From the NCBI GenBank assembly GCA_035527845.1, contig DATKZT010000083.1:7304-31303 (forward strand): a stretch of DNA of 24,000 nucleotides. Reading direction: 5' to 3'. Made by a program: the position numbers and the translations under genes. Shown piece by piece: positions 7,701-19,870 of the stretch. Each line of letters begins with the position of its first letter. Positions within the stretch are counted from its first letter, which is position 1. The notes under the pieces are model-generated. The model did no database searches. It was not told the DNA's origin and saw only the letters and a program-made list of their open reading frames with translations. The stretch comes from Sedimentisphaerales bacterium (GTDB lineage Bacteria; Planctomycetota; Phycisphaerae; Sedimentisphaerales; Anaerobacaceae).

Positions 7701-8925
7701 CTTTTGCAATAATATAGAAACACTGTTGATCCCGTGCCTCCATATCCAGAAACTCAAAGTGCCCGTTTGCATCAGTAAGAAAAGAAGCTTCCGGCTTCTT
7801 TCTTTGCCCATAAAACACTTCTGCACGTCTGATTGGCCTGGAACTCGACTTATTGACAACAATACCGGAGATACCTGTTTGAGGTTTTTGAGGTTTGTCT
7901 GAATGCTCACCAATACTCTCGCCTGTTCTGTGTTCCGGTGACAAAGAGCCAATATTCTTACCTGAAACGATTTCATGACGCTCATTTGCGCCCGTATCGG
8001 TCGCTGCATCGGCAAAAGATTCCTCAGCTTCACTTTGCCGCACCTCGTCGAGACTGTGTTCTTCTCGTTGTCCCCGGGCAATTATTCCTGTTTGGGAGAA
8101 TTCCGGTCCGGGGCTGGGCTTGGTAACATGCCTGTAAGTGACCACTGCCCCGACCCCTATAGCTACTGCCGCAGCCGCTGCAATTATCTTGGCGGTTACC
8201 CCGCTCATCACGGATGCAGCTGTTGCAGCACCCCCGCCTCCAGACGCAGTCGCCGCAATACCGGCAGCCGTGGAAACGCCGGAACCTTCTATAGCCAGTC
8301 CGGCAAGAGAAGCAATAACAGTTGCAGTGAACGCCTTGCCTGGTCCGGTATGGCTGATCGTTGCCTCGACCATTGTCGCGACCTGATCTTTCAGCATCTT
8401 GCGCCCGCGTGAAACCCGCGTTTTTGCCGCTTCGACGGATAACCCGAGCAGTTCTGCAACATGGCTCATTGAATGTTCCTGGCGATAGAAAAGGACAAGC
8501 GGCTCACGATATTTTTCGGGAATCCGGTCCAATGCCTGACGTATCACAGCGTGTTGCTCCTTATCGATAATTATTTCAATGGGTCTGAACTCCTCAGAAG
8601 AAATGTCCTCCATTCTGTCTATCGGCCTGGCCTGACTTACAATGTCACGCTGCTTATGTCTGAAGTAGTCCCGGATAACATTGTGCGTAATACTATACAA
8701 CCAGACCCGGAATTTTGTTAAATCCTCGAGTTGGGAAAGATTCACCCAGGCTTTTATAAAAGCCTCATGCGCCAGTTCTTCACTTTGCTCTAAATCTTCG
8801 GTGGCGCTGAAAGTTATTGCGCAAGCCAAAGACTGATATTTCTTGACGATAGCCTCGAAGGCAGTGGCGCTGCCTTTAACGGACGCCCGCAACAATTCAA
8901 CCTCGCTGGATGTGTTTTCCAACAT
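4762..8925 (-). CDS. ECF sigma-70 factor fused to a TM segment and a ~1000-aa extracytoplasmic array of CarboxypepD_reg-like (Ig-like beta-sandwich) repeats
   Basis: N-terminal region 2 (ELAHEAFIKAWVNL...FRVWLYSITHNVIRDYFRHKQR) and region 4 (IPEKYREPLVLFYRQEHSMSHVAELLGLSVEAAKTRVSRGRKML). An Ala/Gly-rich hydrophobic stretch follows (VTAKIIAAAAAVAIGVGAVVTY). After that come at least 9 repeats of the pattern (I/V)xG(R/I/Q)VxDxxGxP(V/I)xGAxV...TDxxGxFxLxxLPxG. Start set at the ATG at 8923-8925 (MLENTSS); the upstream 52 codons of the ORF look non-coding. Confidence 0.8.
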   Translation of the reverse strand: MLENTSSEVELLRASVKGSATAFEAIVKKYQSLACAITFSATEDLEQSEELAHEAFIKAWVNLSQLEDLTKFRVWLYSITHNVIRDYFRHKQRDIVSQARPIDRMEDISSEEFRPIEIIIDKEQHAVIRQALDRIPEKYREPLVLFYRQEHSMSHVAELLGLSVEAAKTRVSRGRKMLKDQVATMVEATISHTGPGKAFTATVIASLAGLAIEGSGVSTAAGIAATASGGGGAATAASVMSGVTAKIIAAAAAVAIGVGAVVTYRHVTKPSPGPEFSQTGIIARGQREEHSLDEVRQSEAEESFADAATDTGANERHEIVSGKNIGSLSPEHRTGESIGEHSDKPQKPQTGISGIVVNKSSSRPIRRAEVFYGQRKKPEASFLTDANGHFEFLDMEARDQQCFYIIAKGFTSRRITLDIVKDKVYENYKVELTHGSKVAGIIYDQNDRPVKGATVGTFQFTNHPVITDANGTFEIDGLDPGWGSYQLQVTHPNYPALATNFSPANAGETAWKDIVLKPGVTVYGQVTNAEGNPVVNVDVGNTASRRMWNCIETKTDNEGRYELKNVDTGELVLWAISNKYAPYVERFSLDDNKPSKKLINIRLANPVPLHGKIVDKQGNPVPGVTVNIRKYKGLSSLTDWRDRVTSDSEGKFTLRSAPPDGKVIIEVFADFVPNLMRELEIGQEEECIIEIDRAGKIYGRVANDRTDEPIRRFNVKLSFSKNGTKPGGGYAATWNREGHNFDSTEGFFDTGRENIPVGAEYSMTVYANGFDPLTIDPVIVRPTSNDPNRTEFRLKPATAIAGRVVDCNSTPIAGARIRILSNDSDFEHWDDRDTTVTNHKGEFLLSGVGSQERCIYITAETFAPYLGSSLDLSKNSEGMAEITLQSGLEVFGRVIDANGRGIAGAGVSAHAFSEQLRKLVRPPWPNLGKNTYTDMEGYYDLFDLPAGDISVNVNSSTENGNLNLAHKEIKLEQGRSVELNFGDEVGFRLTGTVRMGQTLLEKANVEIHLPDNSMKWGHTDSEGRFQISGIPKGTHTISTSYDSGSNQKTFQREPGQWIYDTRRVAVEGNTELEITLGDSSVSGKIPVQLMQNEQMKIVTARRWAPKESQDGIFLQRWEYVASARVDSDGTFRCANLRAGRHYLLLSSSDGDTLGITDEFELGESEHIDNVAFNTGNGTLQINVIDADTSQGIPDCVFYIRNDLEAMFCSKKLAPEGSRYGMTTDGNGQAEYSTLPDGNYVVWAETPGFLPGESESVKVHGGEITSVTLSLEPAAVVRFELDSVVKERITGEYVYLRCRVTDAETREPVPMLTLYGENAEHTVRLGPEKISIGRQPDLKLHEGTYNIEYRLYQDRKGSLSFNAGPPLLEGTVTVKLNRQETKLVTISP

Positions 8926-9006
8926 AATTGGGTCCTTCAGAAAGCGTATGTTAGCCTGCCGAGACAATAGACGCCAGAGGTAATAAAAGGTGACAAAAAT
9001 TCCGGT

Positions 9007-9051
9007 GAAAAATTGCGAAATGCCCGGATTACTTCCGAAAAATTGCGATTT
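9007..9051. promoter_or_regulatory. Pair of 12-nt direct repeats (GAAAAATTGCGA) spaced exactly 30 bp, upstream of the sigma-fusion gene
   Basis: GAAAAATTGCGAAAT at 9007-9021 and GAAAAATTGCGATTT at 9037-9051. They lie in the 193-bp gap between the coiled-coil gene stop (9119) and the sigma start (8925). A candidate regulator-binding site; function unknown. Confidence 0.3.
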
Positions 9052-9118
9052 GGTCAATTCTCGAAAAGGCGGGATAAGCAAAAACGCGAGCCGTGATGGG
9101 TGCTGCTGCGTTTGGCCG

Positions 9119-10543
9119 CTACGATTGAAACGAAGCCGCCTTGTATTGGGACCTGCTCAACTGCGTGAAACAATCCGCACACAACAGTTGGCCGGAATCA
9201 ACCTTGACCAGGCGGTGTGCCTGCACATCCTTCCTGCCGCAGCATTGGCAATCCTCAGCTCTAACCGCCGTGTCAAGGATTTCAATCAAATCGGCTTGAT
9301 ACTTTTCTATTTCTTCCGCTTTGGCCATCGCCTCGGCAAGTATTTCAGCCCGCTCGCCCGCCTGAGTTTCCAGAGCCGCCCTTTGCCGGGCCTCATTCTC
9401 TGCCTCGTGTTCAGCGCGTGCACATTCTTGCGCCAGCGCCTCTGCCGCAGCTTCTGCTTCTTCTCTTGCTTGCGCCTCGGCGTTCGCGGCCTTTTCCGCT
9501 TCGATTCTCGCCTCTGTTTCAGCCCTCGCAACCTGCTCGGCTTGTGCCCTCGCCGTTATTTCCTCCTGAACTTCGGCCTCGGCCGCGACCCTCTGCCGCG
9601 ACTCTGTCTCAGCCCTGTCTTGAGCATCCGCTGCCGCTTGCCGCGCAGCTTCAATTGCCGCCTGCATCCGTGCAATTTGTTGAGCATGAGCGGCGGCCTG
9701 CTGTGCCGCCTCGCTCTCCACCTTCGAACTTCTGTAGGCCGCATCTTGTGCCTTTGCTTCCGCCTGCGCCCTCGCCTGTGCGTGCGCCTCCGCGGCCGCT
9801 TCTGCCTTTGCTCTCGCCTGCGCCTCAGCCGTTGCAGCCTTTTCCGCGTCCACTCTTGCCTGCGCCTCAGCCCGCGCCCTTTGCTCGGCGCGCACCCTCG
9901 CGCTTGCATGTTCGGCAAGTTTCGCCTCAGCCGCACACCTCCTTTGCCCCTCAGCCTGCGCGGCCTTTTCAGCCTCCAGCCTTGCCTGCAGCTCAGCCTG
10001 CGCCCTCTGCTCCGCCTGCTCTCTCGCCTTCGCCGCTTGGGCAAGCTTCGCCTCCGCAGCCACACGCCTTTCAGCCTCCACCCTCACTTGGTTCTCAGCT
10101 TCGACCCGCGCCTGCGTTGCAGCTTTGACCTGCTGTTGGGCGTATGCCCTCGCTCTCGCTTCCTGCTGGGCCTTTGCCTCCGCCGCCACACGCTGACCCC
10201 GTTCCGCTTCCATCTGAAGCTCCGCTTTTACTCTGCCTTCCGAATGTTGCCAGCACTTTCGCTTTGCCCTTTCCAGAGCGTCCGCGTATGATTCCTGTTC
10301 ATCCTTCTTTTCTTCGATACACGGCTGGCACGGCCAATGCCGCTGCCGACAAGTCTGACATATCGGAACGGTCTTTCCAGTGGAAGCGACCCCGCAGATG
10401 CCTTCCACTGCCTTGGTGGTTAGCTCTTGAGATTTCACTTTGAATGGACCTCGCAAAATGGATTTTCCCGCCCGCCGCGCCTTACCGAGACCGGCTGAGC
10501 TTTTTTCGACATCCCCAATTATATTATACTCGTTTTGTCGCAA
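9119..10543 (-). CDS. Zinc-ribbon-flanked Ala/Glu/Arg/Gln-rich coiled-coil repeat protein
   Basis: The N-terminal Cys cluster CGVASTGKTVPICQTCRQRHWPCQPC and the C-terminal CQCCGRK...(17)...CADC flank about 330 aa of AEAxA-type helical low-complexity sequence. That sequence includes 3 recognisable ~44-aa repeats (RVAAEAKLAQ...ARLEAEKAAQAE / CAAEAKLAEH...ARVDAEKAATAE / RVAAEAEVQE...ARIEAEKAANAE). The start is uncertain: TTG at 10543, or GTG at about 10436 with GAGG upstream. Confidence 0.6.
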   Translation of the reverse strand: MRQNEYNIIGDVEKSSAGLGKARRAGKSILRGPFKVKSQELTTKAVEGICGVASTGKTVPICQTCRQRHWPCQPCIEEKKDEQESYADALERAKRKCWQHSEGRVKAELQMEAERGQRVAAEAKAQQEARARAYAQQQVKAATQARVEAENQVRVEAERRVAAEAKLAQAAKAREQAEQRAQAELQARLEAEKAAQAEGQRRCAAEAKLAEHASARVRAEQRARAEAQARVDAEKAATAEAQARAKAEAAAEAHAQARAQAEAKAQDAAYRSSKVESEAAQQAAAHAQQIARMQAAIEAARQAAADAQDRAETESRQRVAAEAEVQEEITARAQAEQVARAETEARIEAEKAANAEAQAREEAEAAAEALAQECARAEHEAENEARQRAALETQAGERAEILAEAMAKAEEIEKYQADLIEILDTAVRAEDCQCCGRKDVQAHRLVKVDSGQLLCADCFTQLSRSQYKAASFQS

Positions 10544-11045
10544 ATGTCAAGCCCGAACCGCCCTCGATTCGCGCACCGCTGATTATGGGACCGCACCCGC
10601 AGTGCAAATCACACGCCCCTCGGCCGATATTAAACCAGATACAGACACTATAACCCCGCAATCTCGCCCCACTAACGCACCAACGAACCCCAGACATTTC
10701 CTGATGGGAAAAGACAATCCGCCAAATATAATTGCACATGGTAAATGCCGCTTCCCCCTCGTAGCGACCCATCCTCCGTAGCCCCGAAAGGGCGTAGTAG
10801 GGAAGCGAAGATCCGCCAACATGTCCGTCATACCTTCAGCGCAGACGGAAGCCTCGTCCGAAGGAGGCCCCCCATTAATCAATAATCAATTATCCTTCAT
10901 TATTTCAAACACCCTCCCCCCGCCTCCACAATTTTGCCTTTTACATTTTCACTTATGATTTTCCCCCCTCCCTGACTCCAATCCGGGTGTTTTATGGTCC
11001 CTGTGATAAAGCGGGCTTTGAACGAGTCCTTCCTGTTTTCCACAA

Positions 11046-11077
11046 TAAAAAAGGCCGGGAGACTAATCCTCCCGGCC
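11046..11077 (-). terminator. Rho-independent terminator of the fusexin-like gene
   Basis: On the minus strand: GGCCGGGAG (11077-11069), a 7-nt loop, CTCCCGGCC (11061-11053), then TTTTTT (11052-11047). It lies 31 nt downstream of the stop at 11109. Confidence 0.75.
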
Positions 11078-11108
11078 CTCTGCCGTGTTATGAAACCTCA
11101 AATGCTTA

Positions 11109-12776
11109 TCACTCCGCCTCGGCGCCTGCAAGCCAGCACCTCGCCAGGTCGGCAAAATCGCGGAAATCGACCACTTTATCGCATGTGCTGTCACCAAGTA
11201 CGGAGACGCCTTCACCGGTTATGGATGCTTCATTTTTTTGTTGGAGCTCCCACGAATAATCGCTCCGGTGCTTTTTAGTGTCAAATTTAGCGACAACCTT
11301 ATCATATACTTTGCCGGTAGGTGATTTCAGGGTCACCAGACCCTCGTTTGAGGTATCCATGTTGTACTTGGTATAAATATCGAAAGAAAGCTCGGTTGAT
11401 TGATGTCGAGCCACCGTTCTTGCCTGCGCGCCAATTGCATTGAGTATATTCATATTAAAATCTGTACATGTAACAATATAATCTGTGTTCCCCGGCGTGT
11501 CGCCCATATTACGGATCATTACATGTAAGGTTCCTTCACGAGACATGGAGTTAAAGTCCTCCACGTAAGCGTAGTCAATGATGCCGACGGATTCATTTAC
11601 AGTGCTTTTGATACTGCCCCGCTCCAAAGTAAGGGAAACCAGGGAGTGGTTGATCTCGGTAATTCTGTGTTGAAGGATTTTTGCCATTCCCGAGGTGAAG
11701 TACATTGACTCTTCGAAGGGCTTCTTTTGATGGACCAGGTAAGTCGCATCAAAATTCGGATCTACCGTTAGTTTCTCCAAATCCGAGTTATGTTTTTGAT
11801 ACAACTGGTTATGCAGGCCGTCCCCGGCTTGAGATATCGTCCAGTTGCCTGCCTGCGTCCTGAATTTATAGAAGCTGACCCCGACCTTATCAAGCTCTCC
11901 CCCGTCCTTTGAAACCTCTTCTCTTGGCACCAACAGCATATTCTTCTGGTATTGCTGAACCATTGGATGATCAACAGGCTTTGAAGGAATATAAAGAATG
12001 TAGTTGTCAAGCTCCACTGCACCCGAGTATTCATCCAAATCGCCCAAAAGCGCTGCTTTTACTTTTATGTTGGTCTCCTCCGGGTCCGGCACATGAACTG
12101 TATCCGCCGGAGTAACTACGAACGTATAAATGTCCTCTCCCCTTATCATCTCAACTTTAACTTCATAATATTTTTTGTATTCACCAATCTCATAGCCGTC
12201 GAAATAAACCTCTCCCATTTTTAAACAGTGCGCGGTAGAGAAGGGGGCTTCGTTGGGATGCTCGCCGTAAAGTTCTTTTCCCCGCCACCAGGAACACGGC
12301 GAATCGATGATATCATGCACGCAAAATCCCTGGGAGTGTTCGACCTTTTCACCGTCAATATACGTCCATCCGCACGTCGGACAGTTCGAGTCCGGGCTGT
12401 CCATACACACAAAGCAGGGGCCCGTCGTATTCGGCTCTTTAAGCACTTGTTCATAAGGATAATAAGCGACCGTATGAAAGTAAGTTAACGGGTAATTTAG
12501 GATAGGCACGCTTTTGGTAATTGTAAGTTGTTCTAAATTTGGGTCGCCCGAGTTAAGCTCTAATACTAAACTTTGCGACAAGCCGTAGGATACTGGGAAC
12601 GTAACGACAATCCTGTCCTCGCAGGTTAGTCCACTAACGTCGCTATTCACGCAGTCCGTGATTTCTGTAGCTTGTATCCCTTGCGCATTGGCGGCGCACG
12701 GCAATATGATACACCCTGCAAATACCAACAGACACAAAAGAACCCACACTTTCGAATTGTTGCTCTTGTTCGACAT
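11109..12776 (-). CDS. HAP2/GCS1 (fusexin)-like secreted protein with a C-terminal dockerin-like motif
   Basis: AAGGAG SD lies 7 nt upstream of the ATG. The N-terminus MSNKSNNSKVWVLLCLLVFAGC fits a lipobox, with an alternative SPase I site after ANA. The ectodomain is collinear with HAP2 motifs as I recall them: LTCEDRIVVTFPV, TITKSVPILNYPLTY, CPTCGWTYIDGEKVEHSQGFC, STAHCLKMGEVYFDGYEIG, ALLGDLDEY, NMLLV...DGGELDKVGVSFYKFRTQ, GLHNQL, and the domain-III-like HVMIRNMGDT...DYIVTCTD. The C-terminus VVDFRDFADLARCWL is dockerin-like. No C-terminal TM helix. Confidence 0.75.
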   Translation of the reverse strand: MSNKSNNSKVWVLLCLLVFAGCIILPCAANAQGIQATEITDCVNSDVSGLTCEDRIVVTFPVSYGLSQSLVLELNSGDPNLEQLTITKSVPILNYPLTYFHTVAYYPYEQVLKEPNTTGPCFVCMDSPDSNCPTCGWTYIDGEKVEHSQGFCVHDIIDSPCSWWRGKELYGEHPNEAPFSTAHCLKMGEVYFDGYEIGEYKKYYEVKVEMIRGEDIYTFVVTPADTVHVPDPEETNIKVKAALLGDLDEYSGAVELDNYILYIPSKPVDHPMVQQYQKNMLLVPREEVSKDGGELDKVGVSFYKFRTQAGNWTISQAGDGLHNQLYQKHNSDLEKLTVDPNFDATYLVHQKKPFEESMYFTSGMAKILQHRITEINHSLVSLTLERGSIKSTVNESVGIIDYAYVEDFNSMSREGTLHVMIRNMGDTPGNTDYIVTCTDFNMNILNAIGAQARTVARHQSTELSFDIYTKYNMDTSNEGLVTLKSPTGKVYDKVVAKFDTKKHRSDYSWELQQKNEASITGEGVSVLGDSTCDKVVDFRDFADLARCWLAGAEAE

Positions 12777-13934
12777 GACAATCTCCTTTCTAACCGGTGT
12801 AATTAATGAATTTTGTTGATAAAAATTTTCTTACCCTTATTCCTGCCTCCTCAAGAAGGTTGTTGAAGTTATTGTTTTTCGCAAACCGGCGCGATTGCCT
12901 CCCGGACAATACGCACCGGCCGGCGGACTGCCCACGCCCGGGTTCTTGCGCTGTTTTGCTGAAATGCCTCTCGAAAATGGCTGGTGACGGGGCGCTGCCC
13001 CATATTCGCGTCTCCCAGAGTTCTCGCGTCCTCCGTACATCCAAAGACGCTCCTCCCCCCCAAATTCGCCGCCGCCCAAACCTTGGCCGTGGCTGATATA
13101 AGGAAACTCTATTTAGCGGGGGAAAACCGGTACTTCGGCCAAAAAAGATGCTCATCTCGCCTTCTCCCGCTCCTGTGTCCGCCGATACGAAAGGCGGGCG
13201 GGAACCGTTTCTTCTATACGCCAGACTCCGAAGCGGTCATTACAAATCTACCGCATCCACACCCGCTTGTCAAGCAAAATATCCCTTTACCCCGTTACAA
13301 ATATCCCGCCCACTCCCTCCCCCACATCTTACGTGCCTATAAGCCTGCCCCTGCGAACCCCGGAGGCACCGACCTCCCTTACGGAGGATTTCTAACCGGG
13401 TCCTATCCACCACCCGCTACCCACCGTTTACCCCGTTAGAAATAAGCCGCCTCTTGGCCCAACTCCCGGCCCCCGATCCACGAACCACCAAAAAGAATTT
13501 CCCTTTACTTCCGCCCCAAAATCGGGTATAATTCCCCCCCAAATGGAACAGCGTGGAATAATGCGGAAAAGCCAATTAATTACGACCCCAGCCCAAAATT
13601 CATCCCGTGAGATGATTCTTTACCCCATGAGATGCGTTAGGTATCTCATCGCACCTATCTCACCGGGATTGCCCATCTTGCCAAGTCATTACGAGTCACG
13701 AGCCACCAGCCACGAGTCACGAATTACAAGCCGCCTAAAACCCAGGAATCCTGCCCCGAAAGTCAAAATGTACGAAGGATTACGTATGAATTTATCAGCA
13801 AATTGTGCAAAACGAACCCAATTTCCAAAACAGCCAAAATCAACGCAAACCCTGTTCCCACAAAGGATTACGAAAATACAACCCCTTCGGCGGCACCCAA
13901 AAACGAACCCAAACGAACCCAAACGAACCCAAAG

Positions 13935-14208
13935 CAAACCCAATTTTTGGCTCATAAACGCCCCCCAAAGCCAAAACGAACCCAAACGAACCCAACTTGT
14001 CGCGGCGAAGCCTGCTTGCCACGGCGAAGTTTCATACGAAGCTGGGTGGCGAAGCCGGAACGAACCCAAAACAAACCCAATTTTTGGCCCATCAGGGGCC
14101 CCCAAAGCCAAAACGAACCCAAACGAACCCAACTTGTCGCGGCGAAGCCTGCCTGCCGCGGCGAAGTCCTCTACGAAGCCTGGGTGGCGAAGCCGGAACG
14201 AACCCAAT
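13935..14208. repeat. Two tandem copies of a 137-bp unit (~90% identical), rich in ACGAACCCA and GGCGAAGCC submotifs
   Basis: Unit 1 (13935-14071) and unit 2 (14072-14208) align base for base: CAAACCCAATTTTTGGC...CCAAAGCCAAAACGAACCCAAACGAACCCAACTTGTCGCGGCGAAGCCTGC.TGCC.CGGCGAAGT.....ACGAAGC.TGGGTGGCGAAGCCGGAACGAACCCA. Extra ACGAACCCA copies lie upstream (13899-13930, 13812-13820). All three forward frames are open, so this is not coding. Confidence 0.85.
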
Positions 14209-14260
14209 TTCGAAAGCTAAAGGATCTGAGCATGGGATGGCTACTGATGAATTGTGGAAA

Positions 14261-14333
14261 TGAGAGTGCTGGGGCTCGAACCCAGGACCTACGGCTTAAA
14301 AGGCCGTTGCTCTACCGGCTGAGCTACACTCCC
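14261..14333 (-). tRNA. tRNA-Lys (anticodon UUU), 73 nt, CCA not encoded
   Basis: The minus-strand sequence GGGAGTG TA GCTC AGCCGGTA GAGC A ACGGC CTTTTAA GCCGT AGGTC CTGGG TTCGAGC CCCAG CACTCTC A folds as a canonical cloverleaf. The 7-bp acceptor stem has one G-U pair. The D, anticodon and T stems all pair fully. Confidence 0.92.
14293..14333. repeat. attL: 41-bp direct repeat equal to nt 1-41 of the tRNA-Lys
   Basis: GGCTTAAAAGGCCGTTGCTCTACCGGCTGAGCTACACTCCC recurs at 21008-21048 with one mismatch (G at 14317 versus T at 21032), at an offset of 6715 bp. Confidence 0.85.
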
Positions 14334-14368
14334 CAACCGTATGAGTTATAAGGACTTATCTTCACGCC
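14334..14368. repeat. Left terminal inverted repeat of the element (partner 20974-21007)
   Basis: The reverse complement GGCGTGAAGATAAGTCCTTATAACTCATACGGTTG aligns with the plus strand at 20974-21007, GGCGTGAAGATAAAAGACTTACAACACGGGGTTG. The first 13 nt are identical, then CTTA(T/C)AAC, CGG and TTG match. Confidence 0.6.
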
Positions 14369-14373
14369 GTCAA
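14345..14373 (-). promoter_or_regulatory. Element-borne sigma70-type promoter driving the reconstituted tRNA-Lys
   Basis: Minus strand: TTGACG (14373-14368), 17 nt, TATAAC (14350-14345), ending 11 nt upstream of tRNA position 1. Confidence 0.55.
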
Positions 14374-14414
14374 ACACTTTTTACCTCAAAATCTCAAAAT
14401 ACGTCAGTTTTACG

Positions 14415-15587
14415 TCAAACAGCATTTATCAGCGCGTCCATTCCGCGGGCTGCTCTGGCGCGATCTTGTTCGGTGAGGCAGTCGTAAAACTTCGCAGTCG
14501 TGCTGAGGGATCGATGCCCCATTAGCCGTTGTGTTATGGCCATGTCCGAGTTTATCAAGGCCCAATTCTTGCCCGCGCATTTTCGCAGCGTGTGAATTGA
14601 CAATGATTCATCGGGCCCGGCCACAATGCCGGCCTTCCGGCAGTGTCTTTGAAACTCCCGATTCGCGTTGCGAAACGCCGCCTGCCAGCGCCATGTCCCT
14701 TTTGCCTTGCGGTGTGCTTGCCATTTTCGCTGCAACTCACTGCAGCGGCCCTGGTCAAGCACAATGTAAGGGCTCCGGAAACTTTGCACGCGAAGCCGCC
14801 GCAAAATCGTTATTGTCGATTCAGGCAGCCGCAATCGTCGCGTCCGTTCCCTCGGACTTTTCAGGCGAAACTCGGGCTCAGTATCCGTCCCTGACCGGCC
14901 CTGCAACAAAACTTCCCCCGTTTTCAAGTCCACGTCGCACCAACGCAGGGCCACCGCCTCAGCGAAGCGCAGGCCGCCCGTCCAGCACAGAGCATAAAAA
15001 GCCTGCCAGTGCAGCGACGGCGCAGCATCCAGAAGCCGCTTGAATTCATCCGGCGTGACGTAGTGCCAGTTGCGCGGATCGGGCAGCGCTTGCTTGACGC
15101 TCTCAAACGGATTGCGAATAACCCAGCCGAACGCCTGTGCCTGGCGAAACATCGTTCGGCAGTGCCGAAGGGTCCTGTGAATCGTCCAGCCTGACAGCTC
15201 TTGCCCCCGCACGGGCCGCAAACCCGAAATAAAATGCGCCGCTTCGTCGGGGCTGATGTCGGCGATTAGGCGTTCCGGCCCGAACCACTTTTGCAGGCGT
15301 GTCGCCGTGTTCCGATAGAGCTCGACGCTTGCCGGCCTGAGCGGCCGCGTTTGCAGGAACCTATCGCAGAGTACCTTCAGGCTTTCCGTCGGCTTGTCGC
15401 GCCTGGCCCCGCGCGAAAACTCATGCGCACGCTCTCTGGCGAGCTCCTCGGCCTGGGCCTTCAGACGAAACGATTTGCAATAGCGGCGTTGCTTTCCGGC
15501 GTGCGGATCATATTCCCCATACCACCGGACAATATAGGGTTTTTTTCTGTTCCGAGGTTCATAACCAATTGTGACTCTGGTGTTCAT
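14415..15587 (-). CDS. int: Tyrosine-type site-specific integrase
   Basis: 390 aa. The C-terminal catalytic region has GLRFAEAVALRW, HTLRKCAGKNWA and LMGHRSLSTTAKFY (the R...HxxR...Y signature). Sits next to the tRNA/att site. Confidence 0.9.
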   Translation of the reverse strand: MNTRVTIGYEPRNRKKPYIVRWYGEYDPHAGKQRRYCKSFRLKAQAEELARERAHEFSRGARRDKPTESLKVLCDRFLQTRPLRPASVELYRNTATRLQKWFGPERLIADISPDEAAHFISGLRPVRGQELSGWTIHRTLRHCRTMFRQAQAFGWVIRNPFESVKQALPDPRNWHYVTPDEFKRLLDAAPSLHWQAFYALCWTGGLRFAEAVALRWCDVDLKTGEVLLQGRSGTDTEPEFRLKSPRERTRRLRLPESTITILRRLRVQSFRSPYIVLDQGRCSELQRKWQAHRKAKGTWRWQAAFRNANREFQRHCRKAGIVAGPDESLSIHTLRKCAGKNWALINSDMAITQRLMGHRSLSTTAKFYDCLTEQDRARAARGMDALINAV

Positions 15588-15616
15588 GTTTCACGCTCCT
15601 TTCGGCTAAAAAATGA

Positions 15617-15880
15617 TTATCGGTTTGTCATTGCGTCAACAAACCTCTGCAATTCCGCTCTGCTGTAGAGCAGATTCTTGCCAATCTTTGTAGCATTCAG
15701 CTTTTTTTTCTCCCGGTAGTGTCGCAACGTCTTTGCAGCGTTTGCCTTTTGGCTGTCCAAACGCAGAAAAAGTATCGCCTCGTGTTCGGTCAGAACTTCA
15801 GGACACGGCGAAAAGCCTCCTTTGCCATCCGGCAGAATTGCCGGGACCGCAAAACCGATATTTGTCCCTGCGTTGTCCAC
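15617..15880 (-). CDS. xis: Excisionase-like / MerR-type helix-turn-helix DNA-binding protein
   Basis: 87 aa. LTEHEAILFLRLD...TLRHYREKKKLNATKIGKNLLYSRAELQRFV matches the HTH_17/excisionase pattern. Lies immediately upstream of int on the same strand. Confidence 0.6.
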   Translation of the reverse strand: MDNAGTNIGFAVPAILPDGKGGFSPCPEVLTEHEAILFLRLDSQKANAAKTLRHYREKKKLNATKIGKNLLYSRAELQRFVDAMTNR

Positions 15881-15943
15881 TTTATCCTCAAAAGGGACGG
15901 GCGGGCCTATCGGGAGGTTTGCCCACCCGTCCAGGAGGTTTAC

Positions 15944-17023
15944 TCAAGACCCCGCCGACGCCAGCAATCGTCTCACCTGGGCCTCGTTGAGCACCCCGCC
16001 GTACCGACCCCATGCAAACACGCTCGTCGCGTAAATCTGCTCGTCAAAACGCGGCGGATACACGCGGAGCGGCCTGCGATTCAGGTATTTGCACTTGCGC
16101 CCGGGCACTGCCAGATACCCCAGCGGCAGTTCGTCCGCGGTGTGCTCCGTACCGGCGCCGTTGGAATTCCACGTGTTGCTTGTGGTCAAGCCCAACGTGG
16201 TCACAAGTCGAATCTCTCGAATCAGAGTTTCTGGACCGCTATACACAACGCCTCGCCGCGCCTCGAGCGCGGCGGCGCACCTGTCGCGCCGGCTGAGGTT
16301 GCAAATCAGCACCAAAGGCGTTGCGCTCCCCGTGCGCATCCCAGCCGCCTTGAGGCCGTCGAACAGCGACATCACGCCGGCGTTTATGGTGTTCACATCC
16401 TTTTCCAACGTGGTCGAGCCCACCGCGTCATACGCGATATTCACGCCGTCAACCGTGCCGCCGAATATGCCGTCCGTCGCTGCCTCAATGAGGGCAAAGA
16501 ATACCTCCGCAAGTCTCTCCCACCACGCCAGGTTGTAGTCCTGCACGGCCTCTTCGATGTCCCACCAACGCTGGTCCTCGTACCAGACGCCCGGTATCTG
16601 AAGACCCGCGCCGTACTGGTCGAAGCGAACCGACTCGCTTACACCGGTCAGGCCATAAATAAGGGCCTTCTCGCCTGGCAGGACCTTCTTGAATGACAGG
16701 CCGTTCTTGACGTCCACGATGTCGAAACTGGACAATGTGGAGTTAGAAAGGTCCAGTGCGTCAAAGACGGACAGCCAGCTCATATCAACTTCGCCGGTCC
16801 CGACCTTGAATTTCTCAAAAAGCTGAGATACCTGGTCCGGAAACTGTGAAATCGTCGCAAGCTCCGCAAATTTCTTTGTGAGCGTGCGGGCGTCTCTTAA
16901 CGGCTTGTCGAAGTGGGCCTGCACGGCCCCCCAAAAAGCCTCGTAGCCCTGGGGCGTGAACTGAAAAGCGCCGTCGCGTATGCGCCCCATAGCCGACATC
17001 TTACTCTGGTCGAAAATCTTCAT
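15944..17023 (-). CDS. Putative major capsid protein (HK97-fold); assignment tentative
   Basis: 359 aa with a strong AAGGAG SD. The size, the position in a terminase-containing element and a loose resemblance to Mu gpT / lambda gpE-type capsid proteins support the call. No diagnostic motif was recognised by eye. Confidence 0.45.
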   Translation of the reverse strand: MKIFDQSKMSAMGRIRDGAFQFTPQGYEAFWGAVQAHFDKPLRDARTLTKKFAELATISQFPDQVSQLFEKFKVGTGEVDMSWLSVFDALDLSNSTLSSFDIVDVKNGLSFKKVLPGEKALIYGLTGVSESVRFDQYGAGLQIPGVWYEDQRWWDIEEAVQDYNLAWWERLAEVFFALIEAATDGIFGGTVDGVNIAYDAVGSTTLEKDVNTINAGVMSLFDGLKAAGMRTGSATPLVLICNLSRRDRCAAALEARRGVVYSGPETLIREIRLVTTLGLTTSNTWNSNGAGTEHTADELPLGYLAVPGRKCKYLNRRPLRVYPPRFDEQIYATSVFAWGRYGGVLNEAQVRRLLASAGS

Positions 17024-17027
17024 AATT

Positions 17028-17420
17028 CTACTCCTTTTTCCTTTGTTTCGTGCCCTTGCCGCCTGACGGCAGCTCCGTCTGTTCGTCGGTCGGTATCAAC
17101 GGATTATTCTCCGGGAGAGTCAACCCATCGAAATCGTCCGCGCCGCTGAAATCTCCCGGCTTGCCCCCGCTCTCCACGAAGGCCCAAAATTCGGGAATCA
17201 TATAGCACTGAATGGCCTGCGTGATCAGGTCACTTTGCGTGAGCCCGCTCCGCGCACACGCGGCATCCAAACGCCTCTTATCACTCCCCGTGATTTTCAC
17301 GGTCACGGCCGTGTCCTTCGGTTCAGGAATGGCCGCTAAGAGTTCATCTAACTTGGCGAGCCGTTGCTTTCGCGGCAGCAGTGATAATTCGCGTAGCTGC
17401 TTCGGCGTTATACCAGTCAT
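17028..17420 (-). CDS. Ribbon-helix-helix (CopG/Arc-like) domain protein
   Basis: Start chosen at the ATG at 17418-17420 (AAAGGA SD). VTVKITGSDKRRLDAACARSGLTQSDLITQAIQCYM fits the RHH beta-alpha-alpha pattern. The stop is 4 nt before the capsid-like start. Confidence 0.55.
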   Translation of the reverse strand: MTGITPKQLRELSLLPRKQRLAKLDELLAAIPEPKDTAVTVKITGSDKRRLDAACARSGLTQSDLITQAIQCYMIPEFWAFVESGGKPGDFSGADDFDGLTLPENNPLIPTDEQTELPSGGKGTKQRKKE

Positions 17421-17613
17421 GGCAAATCCTTTCAATAACATCCACAATGCACGGTCAAACAATATGCCAGCAAACTTGCCATAACGCGACTTGCATGTCA
17501 ATAGGCAATCTGAAATTTGTCTCTGTCTCTTGCCCCCAAAAGTGGCCCTAACCATTGCATCTGCAAGGACTTAGGTTTAGGCAAGAAATTTTTTACAATG
17601 GCCGAAAAAAGGG

Positions 17614-17642
17614 TTGACAGTTTCGATTCCCGATGTTATTTT
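17614..17642 (+). promoter_or_regulatory. Sigma70-type promoter (TTGACA-17-TATTTT) in the element's divergent control region
   Basis: TTGACA at 17614-17619, a 17-nt spacer, TATTTT at 17637-17642. The inverted repeat TTCTAC (17641-17646) / GTAGAA (17660-17665) overlaps the -10 box and start region and could be an operator. Confidence 0.5.
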
Positions 17643-17694
17643 CTACTTTTATGGAACATGTAGAATCGACTCGGTTTATCAATTCAGAACTAAC

Positions 17695-17764
17695 GGGCGG
17701 GAAAGCTCTGTCGGCAACGCTGAGCGGGCCTCTACATGGCCTCATTAACTCCCGCCCGCTTTTT
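17695..17764 (+). terminator. Structured leader or sRNA ending in a terminator-like stem plus U-run
   Basis: GGGCGGGA (17695-17702) pairs with TCCCGCCC (17750-17757), followed by GCTTTTT (17758-17764). The 47-nt interior can form two small hairpins (GCTC/GAGC and GGGCC/GGCCT). The GAGGTG SD of the next ORF follows directly. Confidence 0.4.
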
Positions 17765-17778
17765 CTGTGAGGTGCAAA

Positions 17779-19640: not shown

Positions 19641-19870
19641 TGTCTGTTTTCTCCAAAAACGCACTACGTTTGATTCTGAGGGCCAAACTCCATCCGACCG
19701 TACCCACAAGGGGCAGGGTCGGGCCCCCGTTCATCGTTCCTGGCAAGGCCCAGGTGGCTCGTGAGCTTTCCGGCAGAGCCCATTAACCGCACCGAAGCCC
19801 CCACTTTTTGAAGCTGACTGACGTATTTGCCGGACGTATTCACAAACCACCATTCGTAAGCGGCGCTCTG

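What the first reader, a model, noticed from the sequence alone, without database searches (positions are those of the whole stretch)
11109..12776. HAP2/GCS1 gamete-fusogen (fusexin) homologue in a bacterial gene neighbourhood
The 555-aa ORF is collinear over essentially its whole length with the HAP2 ectodomain. The comparison is against Chlamydomonas (Cr) and Arabidopsis (At) sequences recalled from memory, not a search:
- LTCEDRIVVTFPV versus Cr LDCQEKVVVTLTV.
- TITKSVPILNYPLTY versus Cr SLTKSPLWASYPLQY.
- CPTCGWTYIDGEKVEHSQGFC versus Cr SPTCGWFSQGGVRVADSQGFCC.
- STAHCLKMGEVYFDGYEIG versus Cr VSAHCLTFDPQWYSGYELG. This is the core of the HAP2-GCS1 Pfam domain and is encoded at about nt 12147-12383.
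- ALLGDLDEY versus Cr KLLGDLAMY.
- NMLLV...DGGELDKVGVSFYKFRTQ versus Cr AWMLL...DGLACDKVGTGFSAFRYQ.
- GLHNQL versus At CLHNQL.
- A domain-III-like V.I.N.G....DY...V..C segment.

The Cys-rich segment (8 Cys in aa 121-184) fits the disulfide-stapled domain II. A short CSWWRGKELYG segment sits where HAP2 carries its fusion loops.

Fusexins are established in eukaryotes and viruses (class II fold) and have been reported in archaea (Fsx1). I know of no characterised bacterial member. The gene has a bacterial SD, a signal peptide and an intrinsic terminator. It is contiguous with an ECF sigma factor, a tRNA and an integrase, so eukaryotic contamination is unlikely. The motif identity looks closer to eukaryotic HAP2 than I would expect for a deep homologue. 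That raises the question of inter-domain transfer, in either direction.
Basis: partly seen in the sequence, partly recalled or inferred. Interest (0 to 1): 0.96.

Follow-up and report, generated by a model that had tools for sequence, protein, structure and literature searches.

The report
Bacterial HAP2/GCS1 homologue without membrane anchor
A Planctomycetota-type bacterial chromosome encodes a true sequence and fold homologue of HAP2, the protein that fuses eukaryotic gametes; it belongs to a large, apparently undescribed bacterial family that is much closer to eukaryotic HAP2 than the known archaeal fusexins are, but it lacks the membrane anchor a classical fusogen needs.

Summary
ORF 11109-12776 (-) encodes a 555-aa protein that matches Pfam PF10699 (HAP2-GCS1) at E=2e-61 over nearly the whole model. 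Its AlphaFold2 model (pLDDT 86) superposes on Chlamydomonas and Arabidopsis HAP2 ectodomains (Foldseek E=1e-39, TM 0.73-0.86).

It is not contamination. The gene has an SD and a terminator. It lies between a tRNA-Lys and an ECF sigma gene, and the same locus recurs in other assemblies. At least 130 relatives sit on bacterial contigs of up to 317 kb from Planctomycetota, Desulfobacterota, Nitrospirota, Spirochaetota and Gammaproteobacteria MAGs.

A profile of the family finds every solved eukaryotic HAP2 (E=1e-36 to 1e-54) but not archaeal Fsx1. In a neighbour-joining tree the bacterial proteins form one clan (87% bootstrap), apart from HAP2 of most eukaryotic supergroups.

The tip-organising Glu-Arg salt bridge (E109, R165) and an aromatic loop (W163, W164) are conserved. 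However, the family has a signal peptide and no C-terminal TM anchor. Instead it carries dockerin-like tags, Ig-like, collagen or TSP3 modules, or nothing. Some members lack the fusion loops or domain III.

My best reading is an exported, surface-tethered, trimerising membrane-binding module, not a classical fusogen. Function is untested. I found no paper describing the family.

The parts
11109..12776 (-). CDS of the 555-aa bacterial HAP2/GCS1-family protein (stop codon 11109-11111)
   Evidence: ORF list. PF10699 E=2e-61. AF2 model pLDDT 86.2, pTM 0.80. Foldseek best hits are eukaryotic HAP2.
12783..12788 (-). Shine-Dalgarno AAGGAG, 6 nt upstream of the ATG
   Evidence: Read directly from the sequence.
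12684..12776 (-). Sec-type signal peptide, aa 1-31 (n-region with K, hydrophobic core, A-N-A|QG)
   Evidence: Hydropathy scan gives aa 6-34 as the only hydrophobic segment. 103 of 137 family members have an N-terminal signal-like segment. Cleavage site inferred from the -3/-1 rule.
11268..12683 (-). Class II ectodomain, domains I-III (aa ~32-503)
   Evidence: AF2 secondary structure and confidence. TM-score 0.73-0.86 to CrHAP2 6dbs and 5mf1 and 0.66/0.80 to AtHAP2 5ow3. Domain limits are approximate.
12450..12452 (-). Codon of E109, the strand-b glutamate of the tip salt bridge (equivalent to CrHAP2 E126 and TcHAP2 E121)
   Evidence: Alignment to 6dbs and 5ow4. Invariant in 50 of 50 family members. 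Role taken from PMC5332557 and PMC6089408.
12228..12320 (-). cd connection at the domain II tip (aa 153-183): C161-S-W163-W164-R165-G-K-E-L-Y-G. It holds the candidate membrane-insertion loop and the salt-bridge arginine.
   Evidence: R165 aligns with TcHAP2 R176, the equivalent of CrHAP2 R185. R is found in 40 of the 40 members that have the segment, W164 in 32 of 40 and W163 in 21 of 40. The segment is deleted in 10 of the 50 aligned members and 14 of 76 overall.
11802..11906 (-). ij-loop / historical PF10699 signature (aa 291-325: DGGELDKVGVSFYKFRTQ...AGDGLHNQL), including Q324 (equivalent to CrHAP2 Q379)
   Evidence: K297, V298, G299, R306, N323, Q324 and L325 are invariant or nearly so. 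The three ij-loop cysteines found in eukaryotes are kept by 11-17 of 50 members but lost in this protein.
11268..11594 (-). Domain III, an Ig-like seven-stranded sandwich (aa ~395-503)
   Evidence: DSSP strands 398-501 with pLDDT above 90. Aligned to HAP2 domain III.
11229..11267 (-). Conserved short post-domain-III motif (aa 504-516: RSDYSWELQQKNE), in the position of the HAP2 stem
   Evidence: Y507, L511 and N515 are invariant or nearly so. Many family members end right after it.
11112..11201 (-). C-terminal dockerin-like tag (aa 526-555: VLGDSTCDKVVDFRDFADLARCWLAGAEAE), which stands in place of the TM anchor
   Evidence: Found in 27 (single) plus 7 (double) family members. The same kind of tag ends unrelated secreted proteins: window 21234-23999 (-) and L008 11771-13345. 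Pfam Dockerin_1 is not significant, so 'dockerin-like' rests on motif resemblance only.
11049..11081 (-). Intrinsic terminator (14-bp stem with 8 GC pairs, then a T-run), 28 nt after the stop codon

Best explanation
SHOWN. The gene encodes a genuine member of the HAP2/GCS1 (fusexin, class II) family on a bacterial chromosome, most probably Planctomycetota of the Phycisphaerae type. It belongs to a sizeable, purifying-selected bacterial family that is a sequence-level relative of eukaryotic HAP2.

INFERRED.
1. The protein is exported by its Sec signal peptide and stapled by three conserved disulfide pairs.
2. Because it has no TM helix, it is held at the cell surface non-covalently. The C-terminal dockerin-like tag would do this, and the organism also puts that tag on other secreted proteins.
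3. It assembles into trimers. It uses the conserved domain II tip to bind or insert into a lipid membrane or surface of another cell or vesicle. The tip consists of the E109-R165 salt bridge and the W163/W164 loop.
4. It therefore works as a surface-displayed membrane 'harpoon' or adhesin built from the gamete-fusogen fold. It is not a self-anchored fusogen that pulls two bilayers together through a TM-to-fusion-loop hairpin.

The gene stands alone with its own SD and terminator. It is not part of the neighbouring integrated element.
For: Family membership:
- PF10699 E=2e-61.
- The bacterial profile hits solved HAP2 at E=2e-54 to 2e-36.
- AF2 model pLDDT 86; Foldseek E=1.5e-39 and TM 0.73-0.86 to HAP2.

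Bacterial origin:
- SD and terminator, plus tRNA and ECF sigma neighbours.
- Identical locus in a second assembly and a 94.6%-identical strain.
- 119 close homologues, the named ones from MAGs of five phyla.
- Contigs of up to 317 kb carrying SAICAR synthase, PilM, rhomboid and similar genes.

Selection:
- dN/dS 0.36.
- 31 invariant columns in 50 sequences that are 36-76% identical to the window protein.

Tip conservation:
- E109 in 50 of 50, R165 in 40 of 40, W164 in 32 of 40, Q324 in 49 of 50.
- Their roles in HAP2 come from PMC5332557 and PMC6089408.

No TM anchor and varied surface modules.

The tag is shared with unrelated exoproteins.

Trimer: four full-length members (and one fragment) carry collagen G-X-Y runs; in the four, 42-53 uninterrupted triplets lie directly N-terminal to the ectodomain, which forces a trimer held at the domain I end with the tip pointing away.

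No conserved partner gene across 15 loci.
Against: - No experiment exists, and the function is inferred from homology and architecture only.
- The tag is not a recognised dockerin, and no cohesin-like partner was found.
- A Sec signal alone would leave the protein in the periplasm of a diderm, so surface exposure is assumed.
- 22 of 81 members end right after domain III with no tether at all. 14 of 76 lack the cd loop. One lineage lacks domain III. No single mechanism may therefore fit the whole family.
- GPI-anchored HAP2 and Fsx1 still fuse cells (PMC9259645), so a tethered form might fuse after all.
- Trimerisation was not modelled.
Confidence: 0.5

Rival explanations
1. It is a working membrane fusogen. 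It would be tethered to the producer's outer surface through the C-terminal tag, which sits where the TM anchor sits in HAP2. It would insert its WW loop into a second membrane, trimerise and fold back. The result would be fusion or hemifusion of outer membranes, outer-membrane vesicles or whole cells, giving bacterial cell-cell or vesicle fusion and exchange of material.
For: - Complete three-domain fold with domain III and a conserved post-domain-III motif.
- Conserved salt bridge and aromatic loop.
- The tag lies exactly at the position of the anchor.
- Fusexins keep fusing when the TM is replaced by a GPI anchor (PMC9259645).
- Two clan members (P0113, P0132) do carry a TM helix, a Cys-rich stretch and a polybasic tail.
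Against: - More than 95% of members have no lipid or TM anchor.
- A non-covalent tether is unlikely to transmit the force of hairpin closure.
- Collagen-fused members are anchored at the wrong (domain I) end for hairpin-driven fusion.
- Loop-less and domain-III-less relatives exist.
- The post-domain-III segment is only about 20-25 residues long.
- There is no conserved partner gene and no mobile-element context like that of Fsx1.
Confidence: 0.2
2. The fold has been repurposed for a job that has nothing to do with lipid membranes. Examples would be a structural exoprotein, a matrix or S-layer-associated protein, or a ligand- or glycan-binding adhesin of the periplasm or cell surface. On this view the conserved tip residues are kept for folding or for binding a specific ligand.
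For: - No anchor, and fusion to typical bacterial surface or matrix modules (Bact_surface_Ig-like, collagen, TSP3, MopE).
- The cd segment is unusually well conserved (WRGExLLGE...NSFSTAHC). In eukaryotic HAP2 the loops are hypervariable (PMC6089408). Strong conservation points to a specific binding site and away from a generic hydrophobic loop.
- 14 of 76 members delete the segment altogether.
- The second lineage keeps only domains I and II.
Against: - The salt bridge and the exposed Trp-Trp are what HAP2 uses to present membrane-insertion loops.
- No ligand-binding function is known for any class II fold outside membrane interaction and receptor binding.
- This view does not explain why the whole three-domain architecture is retained in most members.
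Confidence: 0.25
3. The gene is cargo of a phage, satellite or other mobile element, as archaeal fsx1 is. It would serve the element, for example in entry or spread of a membrane-containing particle.
For: - It lies about 1.5 kb from a tRNA-Lys that hosts an integrated element with an integrase, TerL and a replication initiator.
- The gene and the adjacent ECF sigma gene have lower GC3 (0.53 and 0.46) than the flanking genes (0.60-0.72).
- Its patchy distribution over five phyla implies horizontal spread.
Against: - The element is bounded by a 41-nt direct repeat at 14293-14333 and 21008-21048, and the gene is outside it.
- No PHROG match and no relative in 2.9 million IMG/VR contigs.
- Viral structures match far more weakly than HAP2.
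- Neighbourhoods in 15 loci are unrelated chromosomal genes.
Confidence: 0.03
4. It is an artefact: eukaryotic DNA mis-joined to a bacterial contig, or a recently acquired and decaying eukaryotic gene.
For: The family is otherwise eukaryotic, and the gene's GC content differs from that of its neighbours.
Against: - Intact ORF with a bacterial SD, signal peptide and terminator.
- The same junctions appear in a second assembly and in a diverged strain.
- More than 130 relatives sit on prokaryote-type contigs.
- dN/dS 0.36.
- Only 22-23% identity to any eukaryotic HAP2 structure, so this is not a recent eukaryotic copy.
Confidence: 0.01

Closest known systems
Eukaryotic HAP2/GCS1 gamete fusogen (Pfam PF10699; structures 5mf1, 6dbs, 6e18, 5ow3, 5ow4, 7s0k)
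   Same: - Sequence-level homology over the whole ectodomain (E=2e-61 to Pfam; profile E=1e-36 to 1e-54 to solved structures).
- The same three-domain class II fold (TM 0.73-0.86).
- The strand-b Glu / cd-loop Arg salt bridge, the ij-loop signature with the conserved Gln, four of the seven tip cysteines, the N-terminal disulfide, and a signal peptide.
   Different: - No single-pass TM anchor and no Cys-rich or polybasic cytoplasmic tail. A roughly 30-aa dockerin-like tag stands in their place.
- The cd connection is shorter and well conserved, where eukaryotic loops are hypervariable.
- The ij-loop disulfides are lost in this protein, although some relatives keep them.
- Only about 22% identity.
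- Encoded in bacteria as a stand-alone gene.
- Relatives are fused to bacterial surface modules, or lack the fusion loops or domain III.
Archaeal Fusexin1 (Fsx1; PDB 7p4l; Moi et al. 2022, PMC9259645)
   Same: A prokaryotic member of the fusexin superfamily with the class II three-domain core and a signal peptide (Foldseek E about 1e-17).
   Different: - Far more distant: TM only 0.46-0.53 at 12% identity, and the bacterial family profile does not detect it at E<=10.
- Fsx1 has a domain IV, a six-helix bundle, three C-terminal TMs and sits in integrated mobile elements of (halo)archaea.
- The present protein has none of these and lies outside the neighbouring element.
Viral class II fusion proteins (bunyavirus Gc, flavivirus E, alphavirus E1) and nematode EFF-1/AFF-1
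   Same: The same fold class, with fusion loops at the domain II tip and trimeric post-fusion hairpins.
   Different: - Structural similarity only (Foldseek E=1e-11 to 1e-17, TM 0.25-0.5, about 10% identity).
- All of them are TM-anchored.
- No viral context here.
Dockerin-tagged secreted proteins of Planctomycetota and other bacteria (Pfam PF00404 type I dockerin repeats)
   Same: A short C-terminal segment with an EF-hand-like D-x-(T/N)-x-D-x-x-V-D-x-x-D loop followed by a helix ending in W-L. It occurs once or twice and is shared by unrelated exoproteins of the same genomes.
   Different: Pfam Dockerin_1 does not reach significance on the tag. No cohesin partner has been identified. The window's version is a single repeat with two extra cysteines.

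Membership tests
HAP2/GCS1 (PF10699), fusexin superfamily | Significant match to the family profile above the curated threshold | tested here: met
   208.6 bits against a cut-off of 27.4, E=2e-61, covering profile positions 47-508 of 515. The reverse test also holds: the bacterial profile finds all six solved eukaryotic HAP2 sequences at E=2e-54 to 2e-36.
HAP2/GCS1 (PF10699), fusexin superfamily | Three-domain class II fold (beta-sandwich domain I, elongated domain II, Ig-like domain III) | tested here: met
   AF2 model with pLDDT 86.2 and pTM 0.80. Foldseek top hits are 6dbs, 6e18, 5mf1 and 5ow3, with E=1e-39 to 1e-33 and TM 0.66-0.86. This rests on a predicted structure, not a solved one.
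HAP2/GCS1 (PF10699), fusexin superfamily | Invariant Glu (strand b) - Arg (cd connection) salt bridge that organises the domain II tip | tested here: met
   E109 aligns with Cr E126 and Tc E121; R165 aligns with Tc R176, the equivalent of Cr R185. E is present in 50 of 50 and R in 40 of 40 members.
HAP2/GCS1 (PF10699), fusexin superfamily | Conserved disulfide pattern (seven invariant tip cysteines plus ij-loop disulfides) | tested here: inconclusive
   C124, C135, C152 and C184 align with Cr C136, C147, C164 and C210 and are conserved, as are C42 and C52. The second Cys of 'GFCC' and the three ij-loop cysteines are absent from this protein but present in 11-17 of 50 relatives.
HAP2/GCS1 (PF10699), fusexin superfamily | ij-loop signature segment with the conserved Gln (Cr Q379) | tested here: met
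   DKVGVSF...FR...GDGLHNQL: K297, V298, G299, R306, N323, Q324 and L325 are invariant or nearly so.
HAP2/GCS1 (PF10699), fusexin superfamily | Non-polar or aromatic membrane-insertion loop(s) in the cd connection | tested here: met
   S-W163-W164-R165-G is present in the window protein. W164 occurs in 32 of 40 and W163 in 21 of 40 members. Exposure and membrane insertion were not tested. 14 of 76 relatives lack the segment.
HAP2/GCS1 (PF10699), fusexin superfamily | Single-pass C-terminal TM anchor followed by a cytoplasmic tail | tested here: not met
   The only hydrophobic segment is the signal peptide. Among the bacterial-type clan sequences examined, only P0113 and P0132 have a TM helix after the ectodomain; the regex tabulation of 81 members counted one of them.
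HAP2/GCS1 (PF10699), fusexin superfamily | Trimerisation on membranes and membrane-fusion activity | not testable with these tools
   This needs liposome co-flotation, SEC-MALS and cell-cell fusion assays. The only indirect hint of a trimeric state is the collagen-fused relatives.
Archaeal Fusexin1 (Fsx1) | Sequence relationship to the Fsx1 family; domain IV and six-helix bundle; three C-terminal TMs; location in integrated mobile elements | tested here: not met
   7p4l is not detected by the family profile at E<=10. Structural TM is only 0.46-0.53. There are no TMs. The gene is outside the att-bounded element.
Viral class II fusion glycoproteins | Encoded by a virus, with a TM anchor and a companion protein | tested here: not met
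   No IMG/VR relatives and no PHROG match. The BFVD best hit has E=1e-16 and TM<=0.45.
Type I dockerin (PF00404), for the C-terminal tag | Significant match to the dockerin profile; duplicated Ca-binding F-hand; cohesin partner | tested here: not met
   hmmscan of the tag alone found nothing at E<=10. The window protein has a single repeat. No cohesin partner was found among neighbours. The resemblance is at motif level only.

The most novel reading that the evidence does not exclude
Bacteria, chiefly Planctomycetota, harbour the closest prokaryotic relatives of the eukaryotic gamete fusogen, far closer than archaeal Fsx1. Two readings would follow.
1. The bacterial and eukaryotic families are linked by an ancient inter-domain transfer around or before LECA. 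That would make a bacterial origin of HAP2 a live alternative to the 'virus, archaeon or eukaryote' scenarios.
2. At least the tethered or TM-anchored members actually merge membranes. That would give the first protein-mediated exoplasmic membrane fusion machinery in bacteria, acting on outer membranes, vesicles or periplasmic membrane invaginations.
Probability: 0.2. Interest if true: 0.95.

Novelty: new variant of a known kind. Interest (0 to 1): 0.84.

Why it matters
HAP2 is the only ancient, broadly conserved gamete fusogen. Its origin (viral, archaeal or eukaryotic) is an open question tied to the origin of sex and of eukaryotes. Until now the only prokaryotic relatives described were the very divergent archaeal Fsx1 proteins.

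A bacterial family that aligns with eukaryotic HAP2 at the sequence level gives three things:
- It adds a third domain of life to the HAP2 story.
- It provides much better-alignable prokaryotic sequences for asking where the bacterial-eukaryotic HAP2 tree is rooted.
- It offers small, signal-peptide-only, disulfide-poor ectodomains that should be easy to express for structural and biophysical work on pre- and post-fusion states.

The family also shows what the fold does when the TM anchor is removed. That could reveal a non-fusogenic ancestral or derived function, such as membrane harpoon or adhesin.

If some members do fuse membranes, that would be a new mechanism of bacterial cell-cell or vesicle exchange, in a phylum already known for eukaryote-like membrane biology.

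Tried and rejected
- **Chimera or contamination: rejected.** A second assembly is identical, a 94.6% strain keeps both flanks, and many bacterial contigs carry homologues.
- **Prophage or satellite cargo: rejected.** The 41-nt att repeat places the gene outside the element. There are no IMG/VR or PHROG relatives.
- **Lipoprotein anchor: considered and rejected.** 'FAGC' at aa 19-22 looks like a lipobox but is not conserved in close homologues, and the hydrophobic core continues to an AXA site.
- **Conserved operon partner or cohesin: none found.** All-against-all BLAST of ORFs from 18 sources (17 loci and the window) found none.
- **Pfam and NCBIfam on the C-terminal tag and the whole protein:** nothing beyond PF10699.
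- **Rfam on the window:** only the tRNA.
- **Rooting and direction of transfer: unresolved.**
  - Only a neighbour-joining tree with Kimura distances could be built; no ML software was available.
  - Fsx1 is too divergent to align as an outgroup.
  - The bacterial clan is supported at 87%, but its attachment point on the eukaryotic backbone is not resolved.
- **Placing the TM-anchored AT-rich sequences P0113 and P0132:** they fall inside the bacterial clan, but on a short alignment with weak support (34/100). Their organism could not be identified.
- **Literature:** six searches found no paper on bacterial HAP2. Subscription-only papers are not covered.


Full report
**1. The observation**

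The window holds a 555-codon ORF at 11109-12776 on the minus strand. Its features are bacterial:
- An AAGGAG Shine-Dalgarno lies 6 nt before the ATG.
- The only hydrophobic segment of the product is an N-terminal signal peptide (aa 6-34, ending A-N-A|QG).
- A 14-bp GC-rich hairpin with a T-run follows the stop codon at 11081-11049.

The product matches Pfam PF10699 (HAP2-GCS1, 'male gamete fusion factor') at E=2e-61. The score is 208.6 bits against a curated cut-off of 27.4. The match covers residues 82-547 on profile positions 47-508 of 515, and no other Pfam family matches. NCBIfam has nothing significant.

A plain phmmer search of PDB sequences finds only HAP2 ectodomains: T. cruzi 3.6e-18, Chlamydomonas about 1e-16, Arabidopsis 4e-16 and Cyanidioschyzon 4e-11.

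- There are seven, not eight, cysteines in aa 121-184.
- The historical Pfam signature is the ij loop, not the STAHCL strand (PMC5332557).

**2. Structure**

An AlphaFold2 model built on an alignment of 50 bacterial relatives is confident (mean pLDDT 86.2, pTM 0.80). Foldseek against the PDB ranks the hits as follows:

| Target | E-value | TM-score |
|---|---|---|
| Chlamydomonas HAP2 (6dbs, 6e18, 5mf1) | 1.5e-39 to 8e-33 | 0.69-0.86 |
| Arabidopsis HAP2 (5ow3) | 3e-36 | 0.66 / 0.80 |
| C. merolae HAP2 (7s0k) | 2e-30 | 0.48 / 0.54 |
| Archaeal Fsx1 (7p4l) | about 1e-17 | 0.45-0.53 |
| Bunyavirus Gc, Atlas virus Env, EFF-1, flavivirus and alphavirus proteins | 1e-15 and weaker | lower |

The viral structure library gives nothing better than E=1e-16 with TM<=0.45. 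The protein therefore has the class II three-domain fold, and within that fold it is a HAP2.

**3. It is bacterial and not an artefact**

The neighbours are prokaryotic:
- a tRNA-Lys(UUU) at 14261-14333;
- a tyrosine integrase;
- a terminase large subunit;
- an ECF sigma factor fused to eight CarboxypepD_reg domains;
- an ABM monooxygenase;
- an Fe-ADH.

The assembly evidence comes:
- The window is part of a 58.8-kb JGI contig.
- A MEGAHIT assembly held in ENA is 100% identical over 12,576 nt across the same junctions.
- A contig from another JGI sample is 94.6% identical over window 10974-13313, so it carries the gene with both flanks.

The word-indexed protein search found 119 close homologues (37-94% identical, E down to 0), all carrying PF10699. 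The named ones come from MAGs of Planctomycetota/Phycisphaerae, Anaerohalosphaera, Thermodesulfobacteriota and Nitrospira. NCBI calls one of them 'HAP2/GCS1 family protein [Phycisphaerae bacterium]'.

A pattern scan of 185,579 GTDB species genomes returned nine loci: Phycisphaerae, three Planctomycetota, Anaerohalosphaeraceae, the Olavius-associated Delta 1 symbiont, Desulfobacteria, Nitrospira and Spirochaetales.

Homologues lie on contigs of 317, 107, 70 and 68 kb. The 317-kb contig carries SAICAR synthase, PilM, rhomboid and peptidase M24 genes around the homologue. One Thermodesulfobacteriota contig has two tandem paralogues.

The closest named relatives (59-63% identical) are Planctomycetota. 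The C-terminal tag discussed in section 8 is shared with other Planctomycetota loci. I therefore take the window's organism to be a Planctomycetota bacterium of the Phycisphaerae type; this is an inference.

**4. Not mobile-element cargo**

A 41-nt direct repeat of the 5' half of the tRNA (14293-14333 and 21008-21048, 98% identical) brackets a 6.7-kb element. The element carries:
- an integrase;
- a capsid-like protein (weak hit);
- TerL;
- an HTH/replication-initiator gene.

The HAP2-like gene lies on the other side of the tRNA, outside the element. It has no PHROG match, and no relative was found in IMG/VR.

All-against-all comparison of ORFs from the fetched loci and the window found no conserved neighbour other than the HAP2 gene itself. 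It is a stand-alone gene.

Its GC3 (0.53) and that of the adjacent ECF sigma gene (0.46) are lower than those of the flanking genes (0.60-0.72). This is compatible with horizontal acquisition at some time.

**5. Relationship to eukaryotic HAP2 and to Fsx1**

An exhaustive HMMER search of 1.84 billion cluster representatives with the bacterial profile gave 1,109 hits at E<=1e-3 and 288 at E<=1e-30. The hits fall into two tiers:
- The top tier (about 800-320 bits) has the bacterial architecture.
- From about 320 bits downward (E=1e-90 to 1e-50) the hits have a signal peptide, a TM at about 530-620 and a tail.

The named ones in the lower tier are HAP2/GCS1 of Naegleria, Malawimonas, Balamuthia, Mesostigma, Paratrimastix, Andalucia and Pygsuia. 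Rhododendron and Nematostella HAP2 came from the other searches.

Against PDB sequences the bacterial profile scores T. cruzi 2e-54, Chlamydomonas 1e-52, Arabidopsis 4e-42 and C. merolae 2e-36. Archaeal Fsx1 (7p4l) is not reported even at E<=10. By sequence, the bacterial family belongs with HAP2 proper, and Fsx1 is much more remote.

The tree was neighbour-joining with Kimura distances on 488 columns and 156 sequences:
- The 59 bacterial-type sequences form one clan with 87/100 bootstrap support.
- Mean distances are 1.04 within bacteria, 1.54 within the other set and 1.93 between them.
- On the other side of the split, the first branch is a small group made of P0134, P0138, P0153 and P0137.

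Three members of that small group belong to a second bacterial lineage:
- P0134 and P0153 sit on dense prokaryote-type contigs.
- Relatives of that lineage come from Spirochaetales and Gammaproteobacteria MAGs.
- In P0134 and P0138 the lineage contains only domains I and II, fused in P0138 to MopE and DUF2341 modules.

In this analysis the bacterial proteins are not nested in any sampled eukaryotic supergroup. However, the tree is unrooted, the method is simple and the backbone is unresolved. The direction and date of the inter-domain transfer therefore stay open.

**6. An unexplained detail that bears on the transfer question**

Two short AT-rich contigs (28-30% GC) encode proteins P0113 and P0132. 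Their ectodomains are 45-55% identical to the bacterial family. After the shared 'YSWELQxKN' motif they continue into FGxGSCDCAFFD, a TM helix, a Cys-rich stretch and a polybasic/His-rich tail. That is the classical eukaryotic HAP2 C-terminus.

On the C-terminal half they fall inside the bacterial clan, with weak support.

P0137 is a TM-bearing protein on a 30.5%-GC contig with an A-rich, SD-less leader. It is the TM-bearing sequence that scores highest with the bacterial profile.

These sequences may be protist genes, which would imply further transfers or an unsampled donor lineage. Alternatively they may be TM-anchored bacterial versions. I could not decide between these.

**7. What is conserved**

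HAP2 orthologues share nine invariant tip residues: seven cysteines, a Glu in strand b and an Arg in the cd connection. The Glu and Arg form a salt bridge that presents the fusion loops. Mutating the Arg abolishes fusion and liposome binding in Chlamydomonas and fusion in Arabidopsis (PMC5332557, PMC6089408).

| Window residue | HAP2 equivalent | Conservation in the bacterial family |
|---|---|---|
| E109 | Cr E126, Tc E121 | 50 of 50 |
| R165 | Tc R176 (equivalent to Cr R185) | 40 of 40 that have the segment |
| W164 | (precedes the Arg) | 32 of 40 |
| W163 | (precedes the Arg) | 21 of 40 |
| Q324 | Cr Q379 in the ij loop | 49 of 50 |
| C42, C52, C124, C135, C152, C184 | includes four of the seven tip cysteines | conserved |

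The ij-loop cysteines are kept by 11-17 of 50 members but are lost in this protein.

Against the 94%-identical orthologue, dN/dS is 0.36 at dS 0.086. The gene is under purifying selection.

**8. What differs**

Almost no member has a TM anchor. Among the 81 members with a recognisable end of domain III, the C-termini are:

| C-terminal type | Members |
|---|---|
| One dockerin-like tag (GDSTCDxKVDFRDFAxLARCWLxG) | 27 |
| Two dockerin-like tags | 7 |
| Stop within 25 residues of domain III | 22 |
| 'WKNHGQYVSCV' module | 8 |
| Long extension (>150 aa; Ig-like etc.) | 7 |
| Other tails of 50-150 aa | 9 |
| TM helix | 1 |

Further points:
- The tag is not specific to HAP2. The same kind of motif sits at the very C-terminus of an unrelated BNR/LamG protein in this window (21234-23999) and of a neighbour of the L008 homologue.
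- Pfam's dockerin model does not score the tag significantly.
- Four full-length members have 42-53 uninterrupted G-X-Y triplets directly N-terminal to the ectodomain and no C-terminal tag. This makes an obligate trimeric stalk attached at the domain I end, with the tip pointing away.
- 14 of 76 members have the whole cd segment deleted.

**9. Mechanism**

Shown: this is a bacterial, exported HAP2-family ectodomain under selection, with the tip-organising residues and an aromatic loop but no membrane anchor.

Inferred, and my best reading at about 0.5: a surface-tethered, trimerising module that binds or inserts into a foreign membrane or surface. It would act as an adhesin or 'harpoon' built from the fusogen fold. 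The collagen-stalk variants, the variety of surface modules and the anchor-less members fit this better than hairpin-driven fusion does.

Rival 1, a real fusogen (about 0.2). It is not excluded, for these reasons:
- GPI-anchored Fsx1 and AtHAP2 still fuse cells (PMC9259645).
- The tag sits where the anchor should be.
- Two clan members carry TMs.

Rival 2, a non-membrane structural or ligand-binding role (about 0.25). It is supported by the following:
- The cd segment is unusually well conserved.
- Loop-less and domain-III-less relatives exist.

**10. Novelty**

Six full-text searches found no description of bacterial HAP2. Moi et al. 2022 state that fusogens of this kind had not been found in prokaryotes before Fsx1. 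They treat bacterial assignments of Fsx1-containing MAGs with caution, and they mention neither Planctomycetes nor PF10699 hits.

The family is visible in databases through automatic Pfam assignments and one NCBI name. The raw fact is therefore retrievable, but as far as I can tell it has not been analysed.

I rate it a new variant of a known kind: the HAP2 family in a new domain of life, with a new anchor-less architecture.

Noticed in passing
window 14293-21048: A 6.7-kb integrated satellite-like element is bracketed by a 41-nt direct repeat of the 5' half of tRNA-Lys(UUU) (14293-14333 and 21008-21048, 98% identical). It carries a tyrosine integrase (14415-15587), a capsid-like protein (15944-17023; weak PF25209, phrog_24071), TerL (18024-19709) and an HTH_36/replication initiator (19871-20704). 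Three 34-nt iteron-like repeats lie at 20221-20353. Integration at the 5' side of a tRNA, and a TerL in so small an element, are both unusual.
   Followed up: partly
window 12777-14260: The 1.5-kb stretch between the HAP2-like gene and the tRNA has no convincing gene. It is full of repeats: seven copies of a 10-nt unit (AACGAACCCA), a 121-nt segment duplicated at 13922-14042 and 14059-14179 (90% identical), and exact 28-nt repeats at 14042-14069 and 14180-14207. GC skew is strong. Rfam finds nothing there. The ENA contig L002 ends inside this region.
   Followed up: partly
window 4762-9081 (-): A single polypeptide of 1,439 aa (1,387 as called) combines an ECF sigma factor (regions 2 and 4), a hydrophobic/Ala-Gly-rich segment and eight CarboxypepD_reg domains. 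This is a sigma factor fused to a very large extracytoplasmic part. Its GC3 (0.46) is the lowest in the window.
   Followed up: no
window 9119-10543 (-): This 474-aa (439 as called) protein has CxxC pairs near both ends and a long Ala/Glu/Gln/Arg-rich repeat region with 42- and 126-nt periodicity. It has no significant Pfam or PHROG match (only very weak zinc-finger hits at E>0.4). A perfect consensus sigma-70 promoter (TTGACA-16-TATAAT) lies at 10550-10523. It sits directly downstream of the HAP2-like gene but is not conserved next to homologues elsewhere.
   Followed up: partly
window 21234-23999 (-); L008 11771-13345 (-): Unrelated secreted proteins end with the same kind of C-terminal tag as the HAP2-like protein (...DGAINFKDLAVMGSQWLEGM; ...VDGFVDIQDLSVLAENWLTGVSL). 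One is a BNR/LamG/Calx-beta protein and the other a 524-aa neighbour in L008. This looks like a general C-terminal sorting or attachment signal of these Planctomycetota, and the Pfam dockerin model does not capture it.
   Followed up: partly
L016 1-1712, L017 1-1190, L019 136-2004: AT-rich (28-30% GC) short contigs encode TM-anchored HAP2 proteins. P0132 and P0113 are 45-55% identical to the bacterial family and fall inside the bacterial clan, yet they carry the eukaryote-type TM, Cys-rich stretch and polybasic/His tail. P0137 is the TM-bearing sequence that scores highest with the bacterial profile. The source organisms are unknown. They could mark the eukaryotic partner lineage of the inter-domain transfer.
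   Followed up: partly
L015 44-1459; P0138, P0153, P0136 (L011), P0249: A second bacterial HAP2 lineage occurs in Spirochaetales and Gammaproteobacteria MAGs and in unnamed contigs. In P0134 and P0138 the Pfam match covers only domains I and II (profile 1-360 of 515), joined in P0138 to MopE and DUF2341 modules. It retains the WRGE loop and the eukaryote-type ij-loop cysteines.
   Followed up: partly
L014 10001-13595: Two HAP2-family paralogues lie in tandem on a Thermodesulfobacteriota contig. The second has C-terminal MopE-type metal-binding repeats. They are preceded by an 862-aa protein with TSP3 repeats.
   Followed up: no
L007 1181-2644: The family is present in 'Olavius sp. associated proteobacterium Delta 1', an extracellular sulfate-reducing symbiont of a gutless marine worm. 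That is a setting where a membrane- or host-surface-binding protein could matter.
   Followed up: no
window 4000-13000 versus the flanks: There is a compositional step. The HAP2-like gene (GC 0.47) and the ECF sigma fusion gene (GC 0.48) are clearly less GC-rich than the Fe-ADH gene, the element genes and the BNR/LamG gene (GC 0.56-0.63). This suggests a foreign island next to the tRNA.
   Followed up: partly
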